From NCBI GenBank assembly GCA_041663145.1, contig JBAZRG010000001.1, forward strand, positions 254,984-318,983: 64,000 nt of DNA. The letters are read 5' to 3'. The notes under the pieces were generated by a model. That model saw nothing but the letters and a program-made list of their open reading frames with translations. It did not search any database and had not been told where the DNA came from. Position numbers and translations under genes: made by a program. Below, piece by piece: positions 18,415 to 42,224 of this stretch. Source of the DNA: Minisyncoccota bacterium. GTDB lineage: Bacteria > Patescibacteriota > Minisyncoccia > Phycocordibacterales > PALSA-1337. Numbering within the stretch: position 1 is the first letter of the stretch; each line of letters starts with the position of its first letter.

Positions 18415-18855
18415 TTAGGTTGACGCCTCAGGTTTACTGTTCAAGAACTTTTGAACAGTTAGTCCTCGAGCTTTCGCACAATATTCAACATCCTTCGGAA
18501 ACAGAGGTTCCTCGCGCCTGTCTACAAAGGATGAACCTACCCATACCATTTTAAATTCGCCGACGACTGTATTGCAAATGTGAGTGGATGAATCACTGCC
18601 CACTCTCACTACATCAGCCTTCTCGAACGAACCGTAATACCATTTTTCTTCAAGCTGAAACTGAATTCTGGCGAAGTCCGTAATTCGATATTCAATATCG
18701 AATTCATCGTCTCCGGCAAATATTCCTGCACGTCCCGTATTCATATCCAATTGGTAGAACGAGACGCGCTTGCCAATTTGGACTTCCAACGCTCTACGAA
18801 GCATCTCCATATGGATGCAAGATACTTCAGTAAGCACAGGGAATATTTTTCTCAT
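18415..18855 (-). CDS. hypothetical protein (first gene downstream of R1 promoter module)
   Basis: 146 aa from internal Met preceded by AGGAG; intermediate GC; no family recognised. Confidence 0.45.
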   Translation of the reverse strand: MRKIFPVLTEVSCIHMEMLRRALEVQIGKRVSFYQLDMNTGRAGIFAGDDEFDIEYRITDFARIQFQLEEKWYYGSFEKADVVRVGSDSSTHICNTVVGEFKMVWVGSSFVDRREEPLFPKDVEYCAKARGLTVQKFLNSKPEAST

Positions 18856-18922
18856 ATTTTCTCCTAATTCAAGGTGAAGGAGATTGATTTCTCCTAGTAT
18901 CACGTTCTGTGATTCCGAAAGT

Positions 18923-19030
18923 ACTATAGCATATGCATGAGTGGGTTGTCAATACTTTGACGATTCCGTCAAATATGTGCCATGGTATGGCTCTGTTAAG
19001 ACACTCTGTAAACCACGGTCGTGATTCGCC
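18923..19030 (-). repeat. R1: conserved ~105 nt promoter/operator module (copy 1 of 3)
   Basis: On minus strand TTGACA-18-TGnTATAGT; upstream palindrome TTTGACGATTCCGTCAAA; about 90% identical to R2 and R3. Confidence 0.6.
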
Positions 19031-19058
19031 TACTACCAATTATATTTACCATACGCAG

Positions 19059-19089
19059 AAAACCCACACGATTTCGTCATGTGGGTTTT
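19059..19089. terminator. bidirectional hairpin terminator
   Basis: AAAACCCACA-cgatttcgtca-TGTGGGTTTT with A-run/T-run on both sides. Confidence 0.5.
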
Positions 19090-19187
19090 GAATGTCAGCG
19101 GCTCATTCCATGCCGAGTGGTTAAACCACCAGATTTTTAGGGCTAAGGTCACAGTACACAAAGTGCATAGTAACAAAACCCATAATG

Positions 19188-19634
19188 CTAACTTGCGAAG
19201 CGCAGAGCCGGGCTGGCGTCGGGCCAGCGGCTGATAAGATCGTGCCAGCCTTGGACGACCTTGTCATCGAGCTCGCAGAGATACGGGACTTTGAGGTCGT
19301 CATCGTGGCGACTCATCACAACTCCCTTCCAGCCGCAGACATATTTACTCTTGAAGTATTTCCGAAAAAATACGATGCCTTTCTTTTGGATTTCTTCGAG
19401 ATCGCGCAGTCCCAAACAGGTCTTGAGTATGCCGTTCTTTTTGAGGTAGACATAGAGTTGGTTACCTCCTATTCGCTTATCTTGTTTCTGTTTGTCATGG
19501 AGCCACTGCTCCGTTTTGGTAATGTCAAACTCGGCAGGACCGGTGTTTTCCAACTCCGGATGCATAACCGTCTGCACCCAAACGGGATACGACGGACGAA
19601 TCGATCGATCTACGCAAATAATGGGATCGTTCAT
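19188..19634 (-). CDS. hypothetical protein, GC-rich cassette gene (about 58% GC)
   Basis: 148 aa; AAGGA RBS before ATG; lies downstream of R2 promoter; fully overlapping plus-strand ORF judged a GC artefact. Confidence 0.45.
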   Translation of the reverse strand: MNDPIICVDRSIRPSYPVWVQTVMHPELENTGPAEFDITKTEQWLHDKQKQDKRIGGNQLYVYLKKNGILKTCLGLRDLEEIQKKGIVFFRKYFKSKYVCGWKGVVMSRHDDDLKVPYLCELDDKVVQGWHDLISRWPDASPALRFAS

Positions 19635-19745
19635 TGACTTATCCTTTCTTTGGTTTGTTTTGGTTAAATCTAGCTCTCAAAAGACAAATTTCTACCTTTT
19701 CGGAGCTAGACTTAGCCGTTCTCAATGACCTGATCTTCTGTAATA

Positions 19746-19849
19746 AGTATAGCATTTCTAACACTATTTGTCAATACTTTGACGATTTCGTCAAATACAT
19801 GCGGTATGGCTCTGTTAAGACACTCTGTAAACCACGGTCGTGATTCGCC
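19746..19849 (-). repeat. R2: conserved promoter/operator module (copy 2 of 3)
   Basis: TTGACA-17-TGcTATACT on minus strand; perfect palindrome TTTGACGATTTCGTCAAA. Confidence 0.6.
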
Positions 19850-19871
19850 TCCTCTCCACATTCTCAATTAT

Positions 19872-20432
19872 TCAAAGTTCTGCAAGATCTCCTTTTATTA
19901 AATATTTTTCAATCTTGCTGACTTCTTCTGAGACTTTCTCTTTTCCTAACTCTGATTCCATCCAATTATTTCTATCAAAATCATACTGAGGTGACTTGTA
20001 CGGCGCAGCTTTGAGTATTATATGATTTGGTACATGCTTTTTTAATGTCATCAAAACCCTGCGAGAATGATAGTTTTTCATTATAGCCGTGATCGCATTT
20101 ACATTCTCCAAGCCAAGCTCTTTATCGATAAGGGCAAGTGAAAATAATACATTTTCGAGAGTGTTTGTTGATCTATTTTCAATGTAAATATCCTCAGATG
20201 CAATGCCTGATTTTATTGCTTCATTTGCCATTGACTCGCTTTCAACCATGCCTGAATTCTCATTAAGCCCACCACTAAAAATAATCTTTGGAACCAGTCC
20301 CCTTTTAAATATTTCTACAGCTTTCTCAACAGCACTTTTTTGCGCATTCCATGTACCAAATACCAAAGCAATATTGGCGGTAGGGTTTTCATCATCAATA
20401 AATACATATTTAGTTATTTCTTCATTTGTCAT
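19872..20432 (-). CDS. YdcF/DUF218 (ElyC/SanA-like) family protein
   Basis: 186 aa; SGG...ENRSTNTLEN pattern typical of DUF218. Confidence 0.65.
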   Translation of the reverse strand: MTNEEITKYVFIDDENPTANIALVFGTWNAQKSAVEKAVEIFKRGLVPKIIFSGGLNENSGMVESESMANEAIKSGIASEDIYIENRSTNTLENVLFSLALIDKELGLENVNAITAIMKNYHSRRVLMTLKKHVPNHIILKAAPYKSPQYDFDRNNWMESELGKEKVSEEVSKIEKYLIKGDLAEL

Positions 20433-20458
20433 GATTTGAGTATAACAATATTAGAGTG

Positions 20459-20510
20459 CCCGCACTACTTCGCAATTTGTCCTTTTAGACAAATTGCGAA
20501 GTAGTGCGGG
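20459..20510. repeat. perfect 23 bp-stem hairpin; its right arm plus TGCGGGT duplicates the tRNA-Gly trailer/3' end (DR-left)
   Basis: CCCGCACTACTTCGCAATTTGTC-ctttta-GACAAATTGCGAAGTAGTGCGGG; 39 nt (20473-20511) identical to 21933-21971. Confidence 0.8.
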
Positions 20511-20625
20511 TTGTGGTACGAAGTTGGATCCTTTTTGGCATTGAAGACTTTAGCATAAAAGGAAAACCGCATCGATCGAGATGCGGCTTGAAGATTTTAG
20601 CGAGTTCTTCAACTCGGTAGATAAA

Positions 20626-21246
20626 CTACTTGCGACGTTGGAAAATCCAACGGTCGTCAAACCGGGCAGACTGCTCGCTTGGACGAACAAAGGGTTGGTC
20701 ATCCTCGTGTTCGAACCTGATGAGTTCGAAAACACTCGGACGCCGAATTTTGTCGAACAAGGGCTCCATCGCAATCCGGACACACTCGTTTCGCGGCTGA
20801 TCCATGTATTGGAGACGCAATTCCAGTCCAATCTCGGCAGTGCAGAGATCAAGACCCTTCTTGGAAGCCGCCGCATAAAACTGTTGAACAGGGATTCTCT
20901 CGTTGCGGAAGTCGAGACCGACTTCAAGCGGCGAGGCCGAGACCAGTTCGACACAGGTCGGCTGCTTGCACATGGGAAACCGTTTGAGGGTAACCATGTC
21001 GAGCGCGTCCGATGTCAGGCCGCATTTGGCGAAGTTAAGGGCCGCGAGCAGTTCGCCAATGGTCTGAAATCTGCCAATCTTGACGTGGCGTCCAATACGG
21101 TCCCACAAGGACCATGCGGGTGCCGGAAAGCTATCTGTTACAAAAGCTTTTCCGGAAAGGAGTTTCTCAACTCCTTCGAGGCCGCCGATCATATTGATGA
21201 CCGCTTCCATGCAACCCCAATCCATTTTACCGTATTTCATCTGCAT
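20626..21246 (-). CDS. hypothetical protein, GC-rich cassette gene (about 52% GC)
   Basis: 206 aa; downstream of R3 promoter; alternative plus-strand ORF 20581..21261 cannot be fully excluded. Confidence 0.4.
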   Translation of the reverse strand: MQMKYGKMDWGCMEAVINMIGGLEGVEKLLSGKAFVTDSFPAPAWSLWDRIGRHVKIGRFQTIGELLAALNFAKCGLTSDALDMVTLKRFPMCKQPTCVELVSASPLEVGLDFRNERIPVQQFYAAASKKGLDLCTAEIGLELRLQYMDQPRNECVRIAMEPLFDKIRRPSVFELIRFEHEDDQPFVRPSEQSARFDDRWIFQRRK

Positions 21247-21406
21247 CCTTTCTTCACCTGATAGGTGACGAAATTCGTGCTGCCCGCACGTTGAGGGTGC
21301 CAGAGGACTAACACGTCAGTGTGTTTCGTCATAGCAGAGAATGGCCCAAACGAGCCGCTTTCTGCTATGACGAATGTAAGTAATTTCAATGACCTATACT
21401 GCTACA

Positions 21407-21513
21407 AGTATAGCATTTTTAACACTACTTGTCAATTCTTTGACGATTTCGTCAAATGTGTGTCGCCATAGGGCTCTGTTAAGCCACCTTGTAAACCACG
21501 GTCGTTATTCGCC
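21407..21513 (-). repeat. R3: conserved promoter/operator module (copy 3 of 3)
   Basis: TTGACA-17-TGcTATACT; TTTGACGATTTCGTCAAA palindrome. Confidence 0.6.
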
Positions 21514-21587
21514 CCCACTCGACTATCTTTGGAGGTTAGTTCCTTCTTCGCTCTTCGCAAAGCTCGGAGCTACGAAGGACAAGCACC

Positions 21588-21827
21588 TCAAACTAACCTC
21601 TTTCTGCTAAAAGCAAAGCCAGATCCTTTCTTCAAGTATTTTTCAAACTGTAAAGCTTTTGTTTTGTTATTAAAACAGCAGTACCACGATAGTTGCACAG
21701 GTCTTCTATCTTTTGTTGAATCAACTAATCCTTTGTTGTGATAACTTATTCGATTCTTCAGATTATCGGAAGAACCAACATAATAGGAGTTATCATGACA
21801 TTTAAGAATGTAAACGAAATGTGACAT
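21588..21827 (-). CDS. GIY-YIG nuclease superfamily protein (UPF0213/YhbQ-like)
   Basis: 79 aa; FVYILKC...YYVGSS...NRISYHNKG GIY-YIG signature. Confidence 0.8.
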   Translation of the reverse strand: MSHFVYILKCHDNSYYVGSSDNLKNRISYHNKGLVDSTKDRRPVQLSWYCCFNNKTKALQFEKYLKKGSGFAFSRKRLV

Positions 21828-21964
21828 ATTAAAATATTAACAGATCGTGTCCTTCTACGCTAAAGCTTCGAAGGACTACTTCGCAATTTTTATAATAATC
21901 TTCGTGATACTCATTGTGCCTGCACTTCGAAGCAATTTGTCCTTTTAGACAAATTGCGAAGTAG

Positions 21965-22035
21965 TGCGGGTAGCGAGAATCGAACTCGCGTCTCAACCTT
22001 GGGAAGGTCGCATTCTGCCACTAAACCATACCCGC
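21965..22035 (-). tRNA. tRNA-Gly (anticodon CCC)
   Basis: GCGGGTA acceptor, anticodon loop TTCCCAA, T-arm CGCGAG-TTCGATT-CTCGC; followed by conserved trailer hairpin. Confidence 0.8.
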
Positions 22036-39897: not shown

Positions 39898-39901
39898 GAT
39901 A

Positions 39902-39927
39902 TGTCCACTTTATGGGGTACGGATCAA
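39902..39927 (+). repeat. direct repeat DR-L of GC-rich mini-island (TGTCCACTTTATGGGGTACGGATCAA)
   Basis: 25/26 identical to 42028-42053. Confidence 0.75.
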
Positions 39928-40042
39928 AGATGGACCGTGTCCGCCGTAGCTACGCCATTACTATAAAAAAGTGACCCTCTTTCAGCTTTCGCTTACTCAA
40001 GGGTCACGTGTCTAAAGAACCAACCACTTCAACTGCTACGGT

Positions 40043-40435
40043 TTATGTAGACAGCTCCCCAGGTTCGAACTTGCTCTCATACTGAGGACGAATCCAAATC
40101 GAAGGGACGAGTGTGTCAATGCGGTTTCTCGAAAGAAATTCAACGAAGCTGTGGCGAATTTCAACGAGTGCTGCAGCCTTTTCATCTTCACCAGGGTTGA
40201 AAGGTTTTCCTGTGCCGTATTCGTCTTCACCGGCAGTGTATAGGACCTCGATCTGTACGGGTGCCTCATTGGCCGTGTACCGTACATCGAAGACGTCGAA
40301 TGCGACATCCTCCTTCCCTTCGATACCGAATATGGCTTCGACCGTGGCAATAAGGCTTCGAGACAAATCATCGAATGTCTCATCGATGATCATGTTCGCA
40401 GCCAAACGGTTGAGGTATACCTTGATCTGTGGCAT
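40043..40435 (-). CDS. tautomerase-family-like small acidic protein (GC-rich)
   Basis: 131 aa from Met175 of the ORF; MPQIKVYLNR... N-terminal Pro pattern; the upstream part of the 304-aa ORF is a Cys/His/Arg-rich GC artefact. Confidence 0.4.
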   Translation of the reverse strand: MPQIKVYLNRLAANMIIDETFDDLSRSLIATVEAIFGIEGKEDVAFDVFDVRYTANEAPVQIEVLYTAGEDEYGTGKPFNPGEDEKAAALVEIRHSFVEFLSRNRIDTLVPSIWIRPQYESKFEPGELST

Positions 40436-40461
40436 TACTGATTCCTTTCTTTGGTTGAGGG

Positions 40462-41073
40462 TTAAATCCAATCCATGACCGGCGACTTCTTGCGAAACCG
40501 ATAGACACAGAGTGGAACGGTTATGCAGAAACTCCCGACTGTCATGTAGATTGGCAAAATCAGATTCGCAAGCGTGAAATCGGAAATCGCAAAGAAGTTC
40601 AAGCTGTAGGCGACGGAGAAGAATCCCCACGCAAACGGCCTGTCTTGATCCGGCGACTTCCAAAGAAACGCTATGGTCGGAAGACATGCGAAGCTGTCGG
40701 CAACTATGGCTACATACAACGCGTATTGAACAAGGTCCTTGCTCTCCCTCATAAACAGCCACATCACTAAAGAAATGATGCCGAAGATAAGACAGACAAT
40801 ATCTAACTTGTTCAACTTTGTTCGCTCGTACTGCCGTTTGAAGGCAATAAGAGTGACAATGAGCGGATTCGTGAATCCGAACACCGCAGCCCAGACGTTT
40901 GCTTTTGCGCCGGAGCTTTTGTAAGTCAGGAGCAATGCGAGACCTATGAAAGTCCACAAACTCCAGCTCGTAATGTTCGGATGAACCTTCTTCTGGTAAG
41001 TCCGAATCGCGTAAGGTATTACACTTACAACGATCAGAATGCCGGAAATCAGTCCGATTAATTCTTTGTCCAA
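40462..41073 (-). CDS. hypothetical 6-TM membrane protein
   Basis: 203 aa; six hydrophobic helices. Confidence 0.45.
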   Translation of the reverse strand: MDKELIGLISGILIVVSVIPYAIRTYQKKVHPNITSWSLWTFIGLALLLTYKSSGAKANVWAAVFGFTNPLIVTLIAFKRQYERTKLNKLDIVCLIFGIISLVMWLFMRESKDLVQYALYVAIVADSFACLPTIAFLWKSPDQDRPFAWGFFSVAYSLNFFAISDFTLANLILPIYMTVGSFCITVPLCVYRFRKKSPVMDWI

Positions 41074-41208
41074 GGATTGCTCCCTTCTTGGTTAATTGTT
41101 TTATTGTGAAGAGCTGAAACTCTTAGGGGCACGACATCTCTGTCATGATCCCAGTTGAGTGGAGGATTGTAAATGGAACACAATCCTCCTTTATGAAACC
41201 GAAACGTA

Positions 41209-41880
41209 TCAGTTTGCCCGCACAATGGTATAGGGGTAATAACCAATTGTTGAATCAGTACCCCATGCTTCCAGGGTGCAGTCTCGCAGGGTAGCATTAT
41301 CGCCGAAATAGAGACAGCGATATTCTTTCTGCATCCCCAGATGGGTCGAATATGGTCCCCAAACGGGAAACTTTCCCTTGAAGACAAACAATACGCCACT
41401 GTCGCCGAGTCTCGTAGGACCATTCGTTGAAACAAGCCGTTCAACCTCTTGCTTCAGGAATGCCAGCGTCTCATCGTCGGTTGCAGTCTTGTACCACTCG
41501 AAGTTGGTCGTCGTGATATCAATCCTGATAAGGACCCTGTTGAAGTTTTCCACGAAGACCATTTGAAGAGGCCGCCCACGGAAGTTTCCGTAGGTGATGA
41601 TCGTGTCATCTCCATCGTGTGCAATGCCGTGTTGAAAAACAGCCGGAGGCATCTGGGGGACATTCGGTCCTTTGACACGATTGAATGCTTCCGAACTACT
41701 TGAGGTGTCCTCGAGCTGAGGCGGCCAGTGCAATTTTTCCAGAGCAACGTATCTCCGTTCCGATGCGGCCAATTGCCTCTCAAGCGAGTCGGCTCGATTT
41801 TTAAATGAGAGTGCGGCACCCAATGACACCGCGATTGCTGCAACGAATGCTATGACTACCAATTTTTGTGTCGTCTTCAT
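41209..41880 (-). CDS. hypothetical secreted protein (GC-rich)
   Basis: 224 aa from Met27; N-terminal signal/TM (MKTTQKLVVIAFVAAIAVSLGAALS). Confidence 0.45.
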   Translation of the reverse strand: MKTTQKLVVIAFVAAIAVSLGAALSFKNRADSLERQLAASERRYVALEKLHWPPQLEDTSSSSEAFNRVKGPNVPQMPPAVFQHGIAHDGDDTIITYGNFRGRPLQMVFVENFNRVLIRIDITTTNFEWYKTATDDETLAFLKQEVERLVSTNGPTRLGDSGVLFVFKGKFPVWGPYSTHLGMQKEYRCLYFGDNATLRDCTLEAWGTDSTIGYYPYTIVRAN

Positions 41881-42027
41881 AACAATGTACTGAGTACTGA
41901 TTTTGTCCGAACCTCCCCTTTTCGAGGGTACTAAACGGACATTTGTTGAGGTATTCAAATCTGGCGGTATTGTAACAAATTACGTAATGAAAGTCAACCT
42001 CTGTCCAATTTACAGCTTGGAAATCTG

Positions 42028-42053
42028 TGTCCACTTTATGGGGTACAGATCAA
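42028..42053 (+). repeat. direct repeat DR-R of GC-rich mini-island
   Basis: TGTCCACTTTATGGGGTACAGATCAA. Confidence 0.75.
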
Positions 42054-42139
42054 TTGCGGAGGCAATACATAGTCGCTATAGCTCCTTGTATTGCACTCTC
42101 GCAAAATATATTCGTTCGCGTTGCTCACTCATTATTTTG

Positions 42140-42224
42140 CGGAGGGTAAGGGATTCGAACCCTTGGTGGGTTGCCCCACACACGCTTTCCAAGCGTGCGC
42201 ACTAGACCGCTATGCGAACCCTCC
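42140..42224 (-). tRNA. tRNA-Ser (anticodon GGA), class II with long variable arm
   Basis: GGAGGGT acceptor, anticodon loop TTGGAAA, variable arm TGTGGGGCAACCCACC, T-arm AAGGG-TTCGAAT-CCCTT. Confidence 0.8.

What the first reader, a model, noticed from the sequence alone, without database searches (positions are those of the whole stretch)
18415..21513. Array of minus-strand accessory genes, three of them driven by a thrice-repeated ~105 nt promoter/operator module, two being GC-rich cassettes
Reading the minus strand downstream of tRNA-Gly gives: GIY-YIG gene, R3, a 52% GC ORF, the P1 hairpin, a YdcF/DUF218 gene, R2, a 58% GC ORF, a bidirectional terminator, R1, then a 146 aa ORF. The three R elements (18923-19030, 19746-19849, 21407-21513) are about 90% identical over their whole length. 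On the minus strand each carries a near-consensus extended -10 promoter (TTGACA-17/18-TGcTATACT). Each also has a perfect 8 bp-arm palindrome (TTTGACGA-TT-TCGTCAAA) just upstream of the -35, which looks like a dimeric HTH operator. Each further has direct repeats CTCTGT(T)AA and about 45 nt of additional conserved sequence. A plain promoter would not need conservation upstream of the -35, so the module appears to be copied as a unit, possibly with a shared repressor or activator. All three driven genes are unknown-function proteins, and two have GC content far above the roughly 38% background, which suggests recent horizontal acquisition. The leader of the 20626-21246 gene also contains a 14 bp-stem hairpin (21327-21374). 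This looks like a co-regulated hypervariable or accessory locus, possibly a defence or niche-adaptation island, built from portable promoter cassettes. No obvious analogue of this architecture comes to mind.
Basis: partly seen in the sequence, partly recalled or inferred. Interest (0 to 1): 0.78.

Follow-up and report, generated by a model that had tools for sequence, protein, structure and literature searches.

The report
Portable promoter module repeated in Paceibacterota island
Three copies of a ~115-nt control module (conserved upstream block, 18-bp dyad, near-perfect promoter) sit before three unrelated accessory genes next to tRNA-Gly in a Paceibacterota genome, and the same module flanks a small rolling-circle/serine-recombinase mobile element in related genomes, so this is a new family of a known thing, a mobile promoter.

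Summary
Three direct copies of a ~115-nt module (R1 21404-21520, R2 19743-19856, R3 18920-19037, minus strand) each carry TTGACA-17/18-TGnTATAsT and an 8-2-8 dyad. Some figures need correcting: the copies are 81-87% identical (not ~90%), the dyad is perfect in two of three, and GC is 53% and 50% (not 52% and 58%) against a 41.7% background.

R is not private to this genome. Copies 81-95% identical occur in four other Paceibacterota contigs. Each window copy is closer to a foreign copy than to its siblings, and R is better conserved than flanking housekeeping genes. In L003, L004 and L001, R is the 3' edge of a ~450-nt conserved non-coding region. In L003 that region adjoins an inovirus-type rolling-circle Rep gene and a serine recombinase.

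R stops at the transcription start. The genes behind it carry their own 5'UTRs, which occur without R elsewhere. The cargo is real: ORF148 belongs to the CPR family of DGR variable proteins but has no TR or RT within this window. ORF204/206 belongs to a family of about 5000 clusters with no annotation.

Best reading: a portable, probably operator-controlled promoter derived from a mobile element, that is, a new family of "putative mobile promoters". Promoter activity, the dyad-binding protein and a possible origin function are untested.

The parts
21964..22035 (-). tRNA-Gly(CCC). Its last 7 nt (ACCCGCA) begin the 40-nt repeat shared with hairpin P1.
21919..21970 (-). Imperfect hairpin just 3' of tRNA-Gly (arms X/Y'). 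It is a direct repeat of P1 (56 nt, 91%).
   Evidence: (D3, I6)
21588..21827 (-). 79-aa stand-alone GIY-YIG nuclease gene (32.5% GC).
21404..21545 (-). R1. Dyad 21439-21456, -35 21430-21435, -10 21407-21412. Homology to L003/L004 extends about 25 nt further upstream (CTAACCTCCAAAGATAGTCGAG).
21325..21374 (-). Long hairpin in the ~160-nt 5'UTR of ORF204/206. The whole leader folds at -56.7 kcal/mol (z = -6.2).
   Evidence: (I7)
20626..21246 (-). ORF204/206 (NCBI start at 21240; 53.3% GC). It belongs to a large unannotated family whose N-terminal ~35-aa module is shared with DGR-target proteins.
20511..20625 (-). Conserved 3' flank of the cargo slot: an intrinsic terminator (20564-20589) followed by TTTTATGCTAAAGT..TCCAACTTCGTACCACAA. 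It is homologous to the sequence after non-homologous cargo in L003, and its last ~30 nt also to L004.
20459..20510 (-). P1, a perfect 23-bp-stem hairpin (-44.2 kcal/mol). It is the second copy of the 40-nt core that starts with the tRNA-Gly 3' end and is a candidate att-like site.
   Evidence: (I2, D3)
19872..20432 (-). DUF218/YdcF-like gene (34.6% GC). It is not preceded by R.
19743..19856 (-). R2. Dyad 19778-19795, -35 19769-19774, -10 19746-19751.
19665..19714 (-). 5'UTR hairpin followed by an A/C-rich tract and Shine-Dalgarno sequence. The same type of leader is seen in L002, L003b and L004.
19188..19634 (-). ORF148 (50.1% GC). It is an N-terminally short member of the CPR DGR variable-protein family. 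No TR or RT was found in the window.
19059..19088 (-). Bidirectional-looking terminator hairpin. Its loop carries 11 nt identical to the dyad core (TGACGAAATCG).
   Evidence: (D4)
18920..19037 (-). R3. Dyad 18956-18973 (one mismatch), -35 18947-18952, -10 18923-18928. The promoter spacer has diverged from the other copies.
18415..18855 (-). 146-aa ORF of a rare family. It has its own ~60-nt 5'UTR with a hairpin (18878-18895) that is conserved next to homologues lacking R.

Best explanation
R is a portable transcription-control module that originates from the non-coding control region of a small integrative mobile element of Paceibacterota.

Reading the minus strand, R consists of:
- Block A, about 42 nt (GGCGAATMACGACCGTGGTTTACA..GTGKCTTAACAGAGCC), which contains two tandem 12-nt repeats (GTGGTTTACAGR and GTGKCTTAACAG).
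- A variable linker of 12-15 nt.
- An 18-bp 8-2-8 dyad (TTTGACGA-AA-TCGTCAAA) ending 3 nt before the -35.
- A near-consensus extended -10 sigma-70 promoter.

Shown by comparison:
- In L003, L004 and L001 the module is the 3' edge of a ~450-nt conserved, rod-like intergenic region.
- In L003 that region is flanked on the other side by a perfect divergent promoter, an inovirus-type (Phage_CRI/gpII) rolling-circle initiator gene and a serine recombinase gene.
- R points away from Rep into a cargo slot whose downstream flank is also conserved: a terminator, about 50 nt, then a hairpin that starts with the last 7 nt of tRNA-Gly.

Inferred: the window island between tRNA-Gly and grx holds three such promoter modules and no Rep or recombinase.
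- R1-ORF204/206 keeps both flanks of the slot, so it is a remnant of an L003-like element.
- R2 and R3 keep only the module, fused at the transcription start to genes that carry their own 5'UTRs.

Mechanism (inferred):
- R provides strong sigma-70 transcription.
- The dyad, centred near -47.5 and abutting the -35, is the operator of a dimeric DNA-binding protein encoded elsewhere, either an element repressor or the Rep itself.
- Three unrelated accessory genes are therefore switched together.
- Structured 5' hairpins and A/C-rich leaders favour stable, well-translated mRNAs.
For: - Repeat and promoter statistics.
- R copies in four other Paceibacterota contigs.
- R1 is 93.5% identical to L004 and R2 is 91.8% identical to L001, while the window copies are only 81-87% identical to each other. 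Housekeeping genes between the window and L003 are only 68-79% identical at the nucleotide level.
- Conservation is block-wise (block A 0.91, linker 0.65, dyad 0.94, -35 1.0).
- R is contiguous with a ~450-nt conserved region in L001, L003 and L004. RNAalifold folds it as a ~330-nt rod in which 18 pairs show compensatory changes.
- In L003: Phage_CRI 3e-14, PHROG 702 4e-27, Resolvase 3e-17, and 25.7% identity to gene II of Inoviridae.
- L003 has a divergent 12/12 promoter on the Rep side.
- The cargo slot has conserved 5' and 3' flanks around non-homologous ORFs, and its terminator stem shows compensatory changes.
- R ends at the transcription start. Homologues of the 146-aa gene in L015 and L019 keep the 5'UTR but lack R.
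- L002 has the dyad and promoter without block A. L003b has the block-A hairpin and promoter without the dyad, so the module is built from separable parts.
- No Rep, recombinase or RT lies in the window.
Against: - No transcription data exist, so promoter activity and start sites are inferred from consensus only.
- The link to Rep and recombinase rests on one contig (L003), with partial support from L004 and L001. The L001 locus is cut off before any Rep gene.
- No candidate dyad-binding protein was identified. A site centred at -47.5 could equally serve an activator or Rep.
- Block A in the window lacks its pairing partner from the rod, so its conserved function there is unexplained.
- R2 and R3 carry a change that breaks the small GGCT/AGCC hairpin.
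- Only 64 kb of a contig of at least 356 kb was visible, so more R copies or the cognate Rep may lie elsewhere.
Confidence: 0.55

Rival explanations
1. R is, or contains, the plus-strand origin and terminus of the rolling-circle element. Block A would supply tandem iterons and a small hairpin with a TTAACAG loop as the nick region, and the dyad would be the Rep-binding site. This mirrors the f1 origin, which has a nick hairpin followed by a gpII-binding palindrome. Three direct copies would let a Rep supplied in trans start at one R and finish at the next, releasing R-to-R segments as ssDNA circles. CTXphi is produced from tandem prophages in this way.
For: - R is adjacent to the structured intergenic region and the Phage_CRI Rep gene in L003.
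- Block A and the dyad are conserved as separate blocks upstream of a promoter that needs neither.
- All copies are in direct orientation.
- A fragment in L001 ends inside block A at ...CGACCGTGGTT|.
- RCR between tandem integrated copies is documented for CTXphi (PMC4439123).
- The layout of the f1 origin is recalled from my own knowledge.
Against: - No Rep gene lies in the window.
- The block-A hairpin is only 5 bp, shows no covariation, and is broken in R2 and R3.
- L002 keeps the dyad with the promoter but without block A, which ties the dyad to the promoter rather than to an origin.
- No circular junctions were seen. L007 merely breaks at the 40-nt repeat.
Confidence: 0.15
2. The three copies are ordinary intragenomic duplications of one local promoter region. 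The sequence upstream of the -35 would be conserved only because the duplications are recent.
For: R2 and R3 are 100% identical over the 42-nt block A.
Against: - Each window copy is closer to a copy in another genome than to its siblings.
- Conservation is block-wise, with a variable linker that includes a 3-nt indel.
- R3's spacer differs at most positions while its block A is identical to R2's, so the copies are mosaic rather than simple duplicates.
Confidence: 0.1
3. The locus is an integron-like cassette array in which the long hairpins (P1 and the tRNA-proximal hairpin) act as attC-like recombination sites.
For: - A 40-56-nt repeat forms hairpins that flank the GIY-YIG/R1/ORF204 segment (D3).
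- The same junction (...ACCACAA|CCCGCAC...) is found in L003 and L004, and the downstream sequence differs in L004.
Against: - Only two hairpin copies exist, and they do not bound each gene.
- No integron integrase is present. The recombinase seen in L003 is a serine recombinase.
- The cassettes carry their own strong promoters, whereas integron cassettes are typically promoterless.
Confidence: 0.05
4. R is the end of an IS or MITE, or it is a small RNA or riboswitch rather than a promoter.
For: R is a repeated ~115-nt non-coding element, and a conserved 18-bp dyad is part of it.
Against: - R has no terminal inverted repeats or target-site duplications, and the copies are direct repeats.
- No Rfam family matches at gathering score in the window, nor at E<=10 around the R-containing regions of L001 and L003.
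- No match in phage, plasmid or IMG/VR collections.
- R lies upstream of the predicted start sites, and the 5'UTRs belong to the genes.
Confidence: 0.04

Closest known systems
Putative mobile promoters (PMPs; Matus-Garcia, Nijveen & van Passel 2012, PMC3488235)
   Same: Both are conserved non-coding 5' regions (PMPs are 50-100 nt at >=80% identity) found upstream of non-homologous genes within a genome and across genomes, and neither is an IS, a MITE or a riboswitch. R matches this definition.
   Different: R is somewhat longer. It has a defined internal architecture of iteron-like block, dyad and promoter. It can also be traced to the control region of a specific mobile element, and it sits in a CPR genome, a group that the 2012 survey of 1362 published genomes is unlikely to have sampled (my inference; not checked).
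Intergenic (origin) region and adjacent promoter of Ff-type filamentous phages, and CTXphi/RS1 tandem arrays
   Same: Both have a Phage_CRI/gpII-family initiator next to a long, highly structured non-coding region, followed by a small hairpin, a perfect palindrome and a strong promoter. Both also show tandem direct copies in the chromosome.
   Different: - No morphogenesis genes are present.
- Integration apparently uses a serine recombinase at a tRNA flank rather than Xer/dif.
- Rep is divergent from R.
- The window has no Rep at all.
- Origin function is untested.
Repeated operator-promoter units of phages and plasmids (for example lambda OL/OR and the kor operators of IncP plasmids)
   Same: In both, one dyad operator is reused next to several strong promoters so that one protein controls several transcription units. 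This comparison is from my own knowledge.
   Different: Here the regulator is unknown, and the controlled genes are unrelated cargo genes in a chromosomal island rather than the element's own functions.
Diversity-generating retroelements of CPR (clade 2 of Roux et al. 2021, PMC8144416)
   Same: ORF148 is 55-68% identical to proteins whose C-terminal 125-129 nt form a VR matched by a TR, with mismatches only at TR adenines, next to bAvd and RT.
   Different: The window copy has no TR, Avd or RT within 64 kb and lacks the N-terminal ~60 residues. It is driven by R2 instead of the usual local promoter.

Membership tests
Putative mobile promoter (PMP) | A non-coding 5' region of at least 50 nt, at >=80% identity, upstream of two or more non-homologous genes in one genome | tested here: met
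   Identity is 81-87% over ~115 nt. Pfam, PHROGs, NCBIfam and PADLOC place none of the three downstream proteins in a shared family, and each was found to belong to a different protein family.
Putative mobile promoter (PMP) | Not explained by an IS, a MITE or a riboswitch | tested here: met
   No inverted termini. No Rfam match. No match in the phage, plasmid or IMG/VR collections.
Sigma-70 extended -10 promoter | -35 TTGACA, 16-18 nt spacer, TGnTATAAT | tested here: met
   Each copy scores 11/12 with TG. These are the best matches in the 64-kb window.
Sigma-70 extended -10 promoter | Transcripts start 6-8 nt downstream of the -10 | not testable with these tools
   No transcriptome data were available.
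Dimeric HTH operator | A dyad-symmetric site placed where it affects RNA polymerase binding | tested here: met
   The 8-2-8 dyad ends 3 nt before the -35. Mean pairwise identity is 0.94 across six copies in four genomes.
Dimeric HTH operator | A cognate DNA-binding protein | not testable with these tools
   No candidate was identified. The island and the L003 element contain no protein with an HTH match in Pfam.
Ff-type rolling-circle origin | A Phage_CRI/gpII initiator encoded by the same element | tested here: inconclusive
   Present next to R in L003. Absent from the window.
Ff-type rolling-circle origin | A nick-site hairpin and Rep-binding repeats | tested here: inconclusive
   Block A has tandem repeats and a 5-bp hairpin, but the hairpin shows no covariation and is broken in R2 and R3.
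Diversity-generating retroelement (for ORF148) | A VR/TR pair with adenine-specific mismatches, plus RT and Avd nearby | tested here: not met
   Met in the homologue loci L008, L011 and L013 (16/16, 20/20 and 18/19 mismatches at TR adenines). In the window there is no TR and no RT.
Integron | An IntI tyrosine recombinase, attI, and promoterless cassettes each ending in attC | tested here: not met
   The island encodes no recombinase, and no homologue of the L003 serine recombinase lies in the window. IntI itself was not searched for outside the island. Only two hairpin repeats exist. The genes have their own promoters.
MITE / IS end | Terminal inverted repeats and target-site duplication | tested here: not met
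   No TIRs were seen, and the flanks at the copy edges are unrelated.
tRNA-flank integrative island | Direct repeats that include the tRNA 3' end and bound the inserted DNA | tested here: met
   A 40-nt exact core (56 nt at 91%) that starts with ACCCGCA of tRNA-Gly is repeated 1460 nt away (D3).
tRNA-flank integrative island | An integrase within the island | tested here: not met
   None in the window. A serine recombinase is present in the syntenic island of L003.

The most novel reading that the evidence does not exclude
R is the plus-strand origin and terminus of a previously undescribed inovirus-type rolling-circle replicon of Patescibacteria. Arrays of direct R copies would form a Rep-driven cassette system: a Rep supplied in trans nicks at one R and terminates at the next, peeling off R-plus-cargo segments as ssDNA circles that a serine recombinase re-inserts at tRNA flanks. 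That would be a new route for shuffling accessory genes, including DGR targets, in CPR genomes.
Probability: 0.12. Interest if true: 0.75.

Novelty: new member of a known kind. Interest (0 to 1): 0.4.

Why it matters
Almost nothing is known about promoters, operators or mobile elements in the Candidate Phyla Radiation.

- R is a compact, cross-genome-conserved promoter with a clean candidate operator. It could be tested as an expression and regulation tool for these hard-to-manipulate bacteria.
- Its origin points to a small integrative element with a rolling-circle Rep and a serine recombinase that carries a swappable cargo slot.
- The locus also shows a DGR variable-protein gene without a nearby retroelement and under a foreign promoter. 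This bears on how DGR targets spread and whether they are diversified in trans.
- The phenomenon itself, a promoter copied in front of unrelated genes, is already described, so the value lies mainly in being a well-resolved example in an under-studied phylum.

Tried and rejected
- RNase P idea. The structured region upstream of R in L001 and L003 contains motifs that reminded me of RNase P P4 (GGAAAGTC and ACAG..GGCTTA). Rfam gave no RNase P or other match at gathering score or at E<=10, so I dropped it.
- Circular form. The Logan contig L007 starts and ends in the same 20 nt, but that is the 40-nt genomic repeat at which a de Bruijn assembler must break. It is not evidence of a circle.
- Exact-protein look-ups of ORF206 and ORF148 with my own start codons found nothing. 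The annotated versions were found later.
- Three DNA-pattern scans and one Rep-protein scan of viral contigs found nothing.
- blastn of R against the phage and plasmid collections found nothing.
- Profile searches of PDB sequences for both larger families found nothing significant.
- No TR-like repeat was found for ORF204/206 or its homologue in L005.
- LexA box. The only paper on the Patescibacteria SOS network is not held in the library. From memory their LexA motif is of the GAAC-N4-GTTC type, which does not fit the dyad.
- PADLOC gave no hits, so there is no support for a defence role.


Full report
**1. What is in the sequence**

The window comes from an NCBI MAG named Candidatus Paceibacterota bacterium. 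The product of 20626-21240 is the annotated protein WC648_01605, on a contig of 356,648 nt.

Reading the minus strand from tRNA-Gly(CCC) at 21964-22035, the order is:
- an imperfect hairpin (21919-21970);
- a 79-aa GIY-YIG gene (21588-21827);
- R1;
- a ~160-nt structured leader;
- ORF204/206 (20626-21246);
- an intrinsic terminator (20564-20589);
- a 23-bp perfect hairpin, P1 (20459-20510);
- a DUF218 gene (19872-20432);
- R2;
- a leader with a hairpin;
- ORF148 (19188-19634);
- a terminator (19059-19088);
- R3;
- a 146-aa ORF (18415-18855);
- the convergent glutaredoxin gene.

The three R copies are real:
- A 28-nt probe covering the dyad and the -35 matches three times, against zero expected.
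- An nhmmer profile finds exactly three full copies in the window.
- Each copy has TTGACA, a 17/18-nt spacer, TG and TATACT/TATAGT. These are 3 of only 6 sites in 64 kb scoring 11/12 or better, and the only ones with a perfect -35 plus TG.

- Identities are 81-87%, not about 90%.
- The dyad is perfect in R1 and R2 only.

**2. R is shared with other genomes and is modular**

Scanning one genome per species for the dyad plus the -35 found three contigs. L001 is labelled Candidatus Paceibacterota; L002 and L003 are labelled 'uncultured bacterium' in their records. The metagenome scan found one more, L004.

L003 is syntenic with the window. The same glutaredoxin, DedA/PAP2 and phosphoglycerate-mutase genes flank an island with quite different content.

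Conservation of R:
- R1 is 93.5% identical to L004, R2 is 91.8% identical to L001, and R1 is 88.7% identical to L003a.
- The orthologous housekeeping genes of the window and L003 are only 68-79% identical at the DNA level.
- So each window copy is closer to a foreign copy than to its siblings, and this non-coding module is better conserved than coding DNA.
- Conservation is block-wise: block A 0.91, linker 0.65 (with a 3-nt indel), dyad 0.94, -35 1.0, spacer 0.72, -10 0.89.

The parts are separable:
- L002 has the dyad and promoter without block A.
- A second site in L003 (4197-4259) has the block-A hairpin and a 12/12 promoter without the dyad.

**3. Where R ends**

Homologues of the 146-aa gene in L015 and L019 carry the same 5'UTR (CACAGAACGTG.., a hairpin with compensatory changes, then ACCTTGAATTAGGAGAAAA-ATG). 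Upstream of it they have unrelated sequence and no R. In L015 the upstream GTG extension is out of frame, so this stretch is a leader rather than coding sequence.

R therefore stops at the -10 and transcription start, and the genes bring their own leaders. R1, R2, L004 and L003b additionally share about 25 nt of initial transcribed sequence (..CAG.A.A..AGGTCATTGAAA). This is what a portable promoter looks like. It fits the published definition of putative mobile promoters (PMC3488235).

**4. Where R comes from**

In L001, L003 and L004, R is the 3' end of a ~450-nt conserved non-coding region.
- RNAalifold folds the region as a ~330-nt rod.
- Of 117 predicted pairs, 18 show double compensatory changes.
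- The start of block A (GGGGGCGAATAACGAC) forms the 3' strand of the closing helix with GTGGATAGTGGCGCCACCCGC. That partner is absent from the window.
- Rfam has no match.

In L003 the other side of this region carries:
- a 12/12 divergent promoter;
- a small ORF;
- a 347-aa protein matching Phage_CRI/G2P (3e-14) and PHROG 702 'replication protein' (4e-27), about 25.7% identical to gene II of inoviruses;
- the N-terminal domain of a serine recombinase (3e-17), where the contig ends.

L004 is homologous to L003 as far as its own contig end. L001 shows weak homology further upstream but is cut off.

Downstream of R, the window and L003 have non-homologous ORFs (204 aa and 86 aa). Directly after the stop codons they become homologous again. 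The shared sequence is a terminator with compensatory stem changes, then TTTTATGCTAAAGT..AAAAGG.TCCAACTTCGTACCACAA, then CCCGCACTACTTCGCAATTTGTC.., which is a hairpin whose first 7 nt equal the 3' end of tRNA-Gly. L004 shares only the last ~30 nt of this flank (from ..AAAGGTTCCAACTTCG.. to CCCGCAC) and then diverges after CCCGCAC, which marks a recombination junction.

In the window the 40-nt core is present twice, at the tRNA and at P1, and brackets GIY-YIG, R1 and ORF204/206 (D3).

I infer the following:
- R is the cargo-side promoter of a small integrative rolling-circle element.
- R1-ORF204/206 is a remnant of such an element.
- R2 and R3 are further copies of the promoter module alone.
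- The window contains no Rep, recombinase or RT.
- The element is not a complete inovirus, because no morphogenesis genes are visible in L003.

**5. The cargo genes**

ORF148:
- It has more than 190 homologues (55-68% identity) in Parcubacteria/Patescibacteria. They are usually 200-220 aa, with an extra variable N-terminus.
- In three independent loci the homologue lies just upstream of bAvd and RVT_1 genes.
- In those loci its last 125-129 nt are repeated about 500 nt downstream, and all mismatches fall at adenines of the downstream copy (16/16, 20/20 and 18/19).
- This family is therefore a DGR variable protein of the CPR-restricted DGR clade, whose targets lack recognisable domains (PMC8144416).
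- The window copy has no TR or RT within 64 kb. Its high GC is a property of the family.

ORF204/206:
- The word-index search found only two distant relatives.
- An exhaustive profile search found 4983 cluster representatives, 3014 of them at E<=1e-10.
- There is no Pfam or PDB match.
- Its N-terminal ~35 residues (MKY..L.LGQ.EA.VNKLGG.EGV..FL.GE) are the same module found at the N-terminus of full-length ORF148-family proteins (hhalign probability 95%).
- No TR was found for it.

The 146-aa protein:
- It has three homologues.
- A mediocre model gave only generic fold matches.

No PADLOC or PHROG family matches the three cargo proteins.

**6. How it probably works**

The promoter is close to consensus and needs no activator. 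The dyad spans about -56 to -39 and abuts the -35. Together with the -35 it forms three alternating TTGAC motifs.

The most economical reading is an operator for a dimeric protein that competes with sigma region 4 or the alpha C-terminal domain. Under that reading, three unrelated accessory genes respond to one regulator encoded elsewhere.

Block A contains two tandem 12-nt repeats and is conserved independently of the dyad. It is a second protein-binding site or an origin component.

Long 5' hairpins and A/C-rich leaders suggest stable, efficiently translated mRNAs (leader folds: -56.7 kcal/mol at z = -6.2, and -26.4 kcal/mol at z = -3.5).

All of this is inference from sequence.

**7. Rival and most novel reading**

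The layout is a structured region, then a small hairpin with a TTAACAG loop, then a perfect palindrome, then a promoter, all next to a gpII-family initiator. It parallels the Ff intergenic region (from my own knowledge of the f1 origin).

CTXphi shows that tandem integrated copies can serve for Rep-driven production of ssDNA circles (PMC4439123).

If R contains the plus origin, the three direct copies could mobilise R-to-R segments.

Against this:
- the hairpin is weak and is broken in R2 and R3;
- L002 ties the dyad to the promoter;
- no Rep lies in the window.

I give this reading about 0.12-0.15.

**8. Verdict**

The architecture does have analogues, namely mobile promoters and the repeated promoter-operator units of mobile elements. 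Two of the three 'unknown' genes belong to large CPR families, one of them the DGR variable proteins.

I classify R as a new family within a known kind. It is of moderate interest, mainly as a handle on transcription control and on a new small mobile element in Patescibacteria.

Noticed in passing
window 19059-19088: The loop of the terminator hairpin between ORF148 and R3 carries 11 nt identical to the core of the R dyad (TGACGAAATCG). It may be a degenerate fourth operator or a relic (D4).
   Followed up: partly
window 20459-20510 and 21919-21970; L003 3058-3220: A 40-nt core that starts with the last 7 nt of tRNA-Gly is repeated 1460 nt apart, once as a perfect 23-bp-stem palindrome. L003 has the same hairpin followed by three partial copies of one arm (CGAAGTGCAGGCAC). 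These look like scars of repeated site-specific recombination.
   Followed up: partly
window 19188-19634; L008, L011, L013: ORF148 belongs to a CPR DGR variable-protein family with adenine-only VR/TR mismatches in three loci. In this window it stands alone, without TR, Avd or RT, and lacks the family's N-terminal ~60 residues.
   Followed up: yes
window 20626-21240: ORF204/206 belongs to a family with about 5000 representatives at 50% identity and no Pfam or PDB match. Some members are tandem duplications (P0129, P0133). Its N-terminal module is shared with DGR-target proteins.
   Followed up: partly
L003 2130-2545; L001 7445-7800; L004 40-445: A ~330-nt rod-like conserved non-coding region with compensatory changes and no Rfam match lies between two divergent consensus promoters, next to a Phage_CRI Rep gene. 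It is a candidate origin or packaging region of an undescribed element.
   Followed up: partly
L001 3860-3936: A 75-nt fragment of the same conserved region lies next to tRNA-Arg and a toxin-antitoxin-like gene pair that I read as HicA/HicB from the translations (not checked against a family library). It ends abruptly inside block A at ...CGACCGTGGTT|.
   Followed up: no
window 39900-42140: This looks like a second accessory island, next to tRNA-Ser and a RhuM-family gene. It has ~50% GC, ORFs without Pfam matches, and an intergenic hairpin element (..ACTCAACTGGGATCATGACAGAGATGTCGTGCCCC..) homologous to sequences in the L003 (4680-4780) and L002 (2540-2600) islands.
   Followed up: partly
window 18860-18917; L015 530-580; L019 125-185: The 5'UTR of the 146-aa gene has a small hairpin whose stem changes in a compensatory way among the three homologues (GGAGA/TCTCC, GGAAT/ATTCC, GGGGG/CCCCC), followed by a conserved ACCTTGAATTAGGAG ribosome-binding region.
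   Followed up: partly
L004 2705-2730 and 2850-2875; window 21919-21935: The motif CGAAGTGCAGG recurs just 3' of tRNA genes (tRNA-Pro in L004, tRNA-Gly in the window). It may be a lineage-specific tRNA trailer or recombination motif.
   Followed up: no
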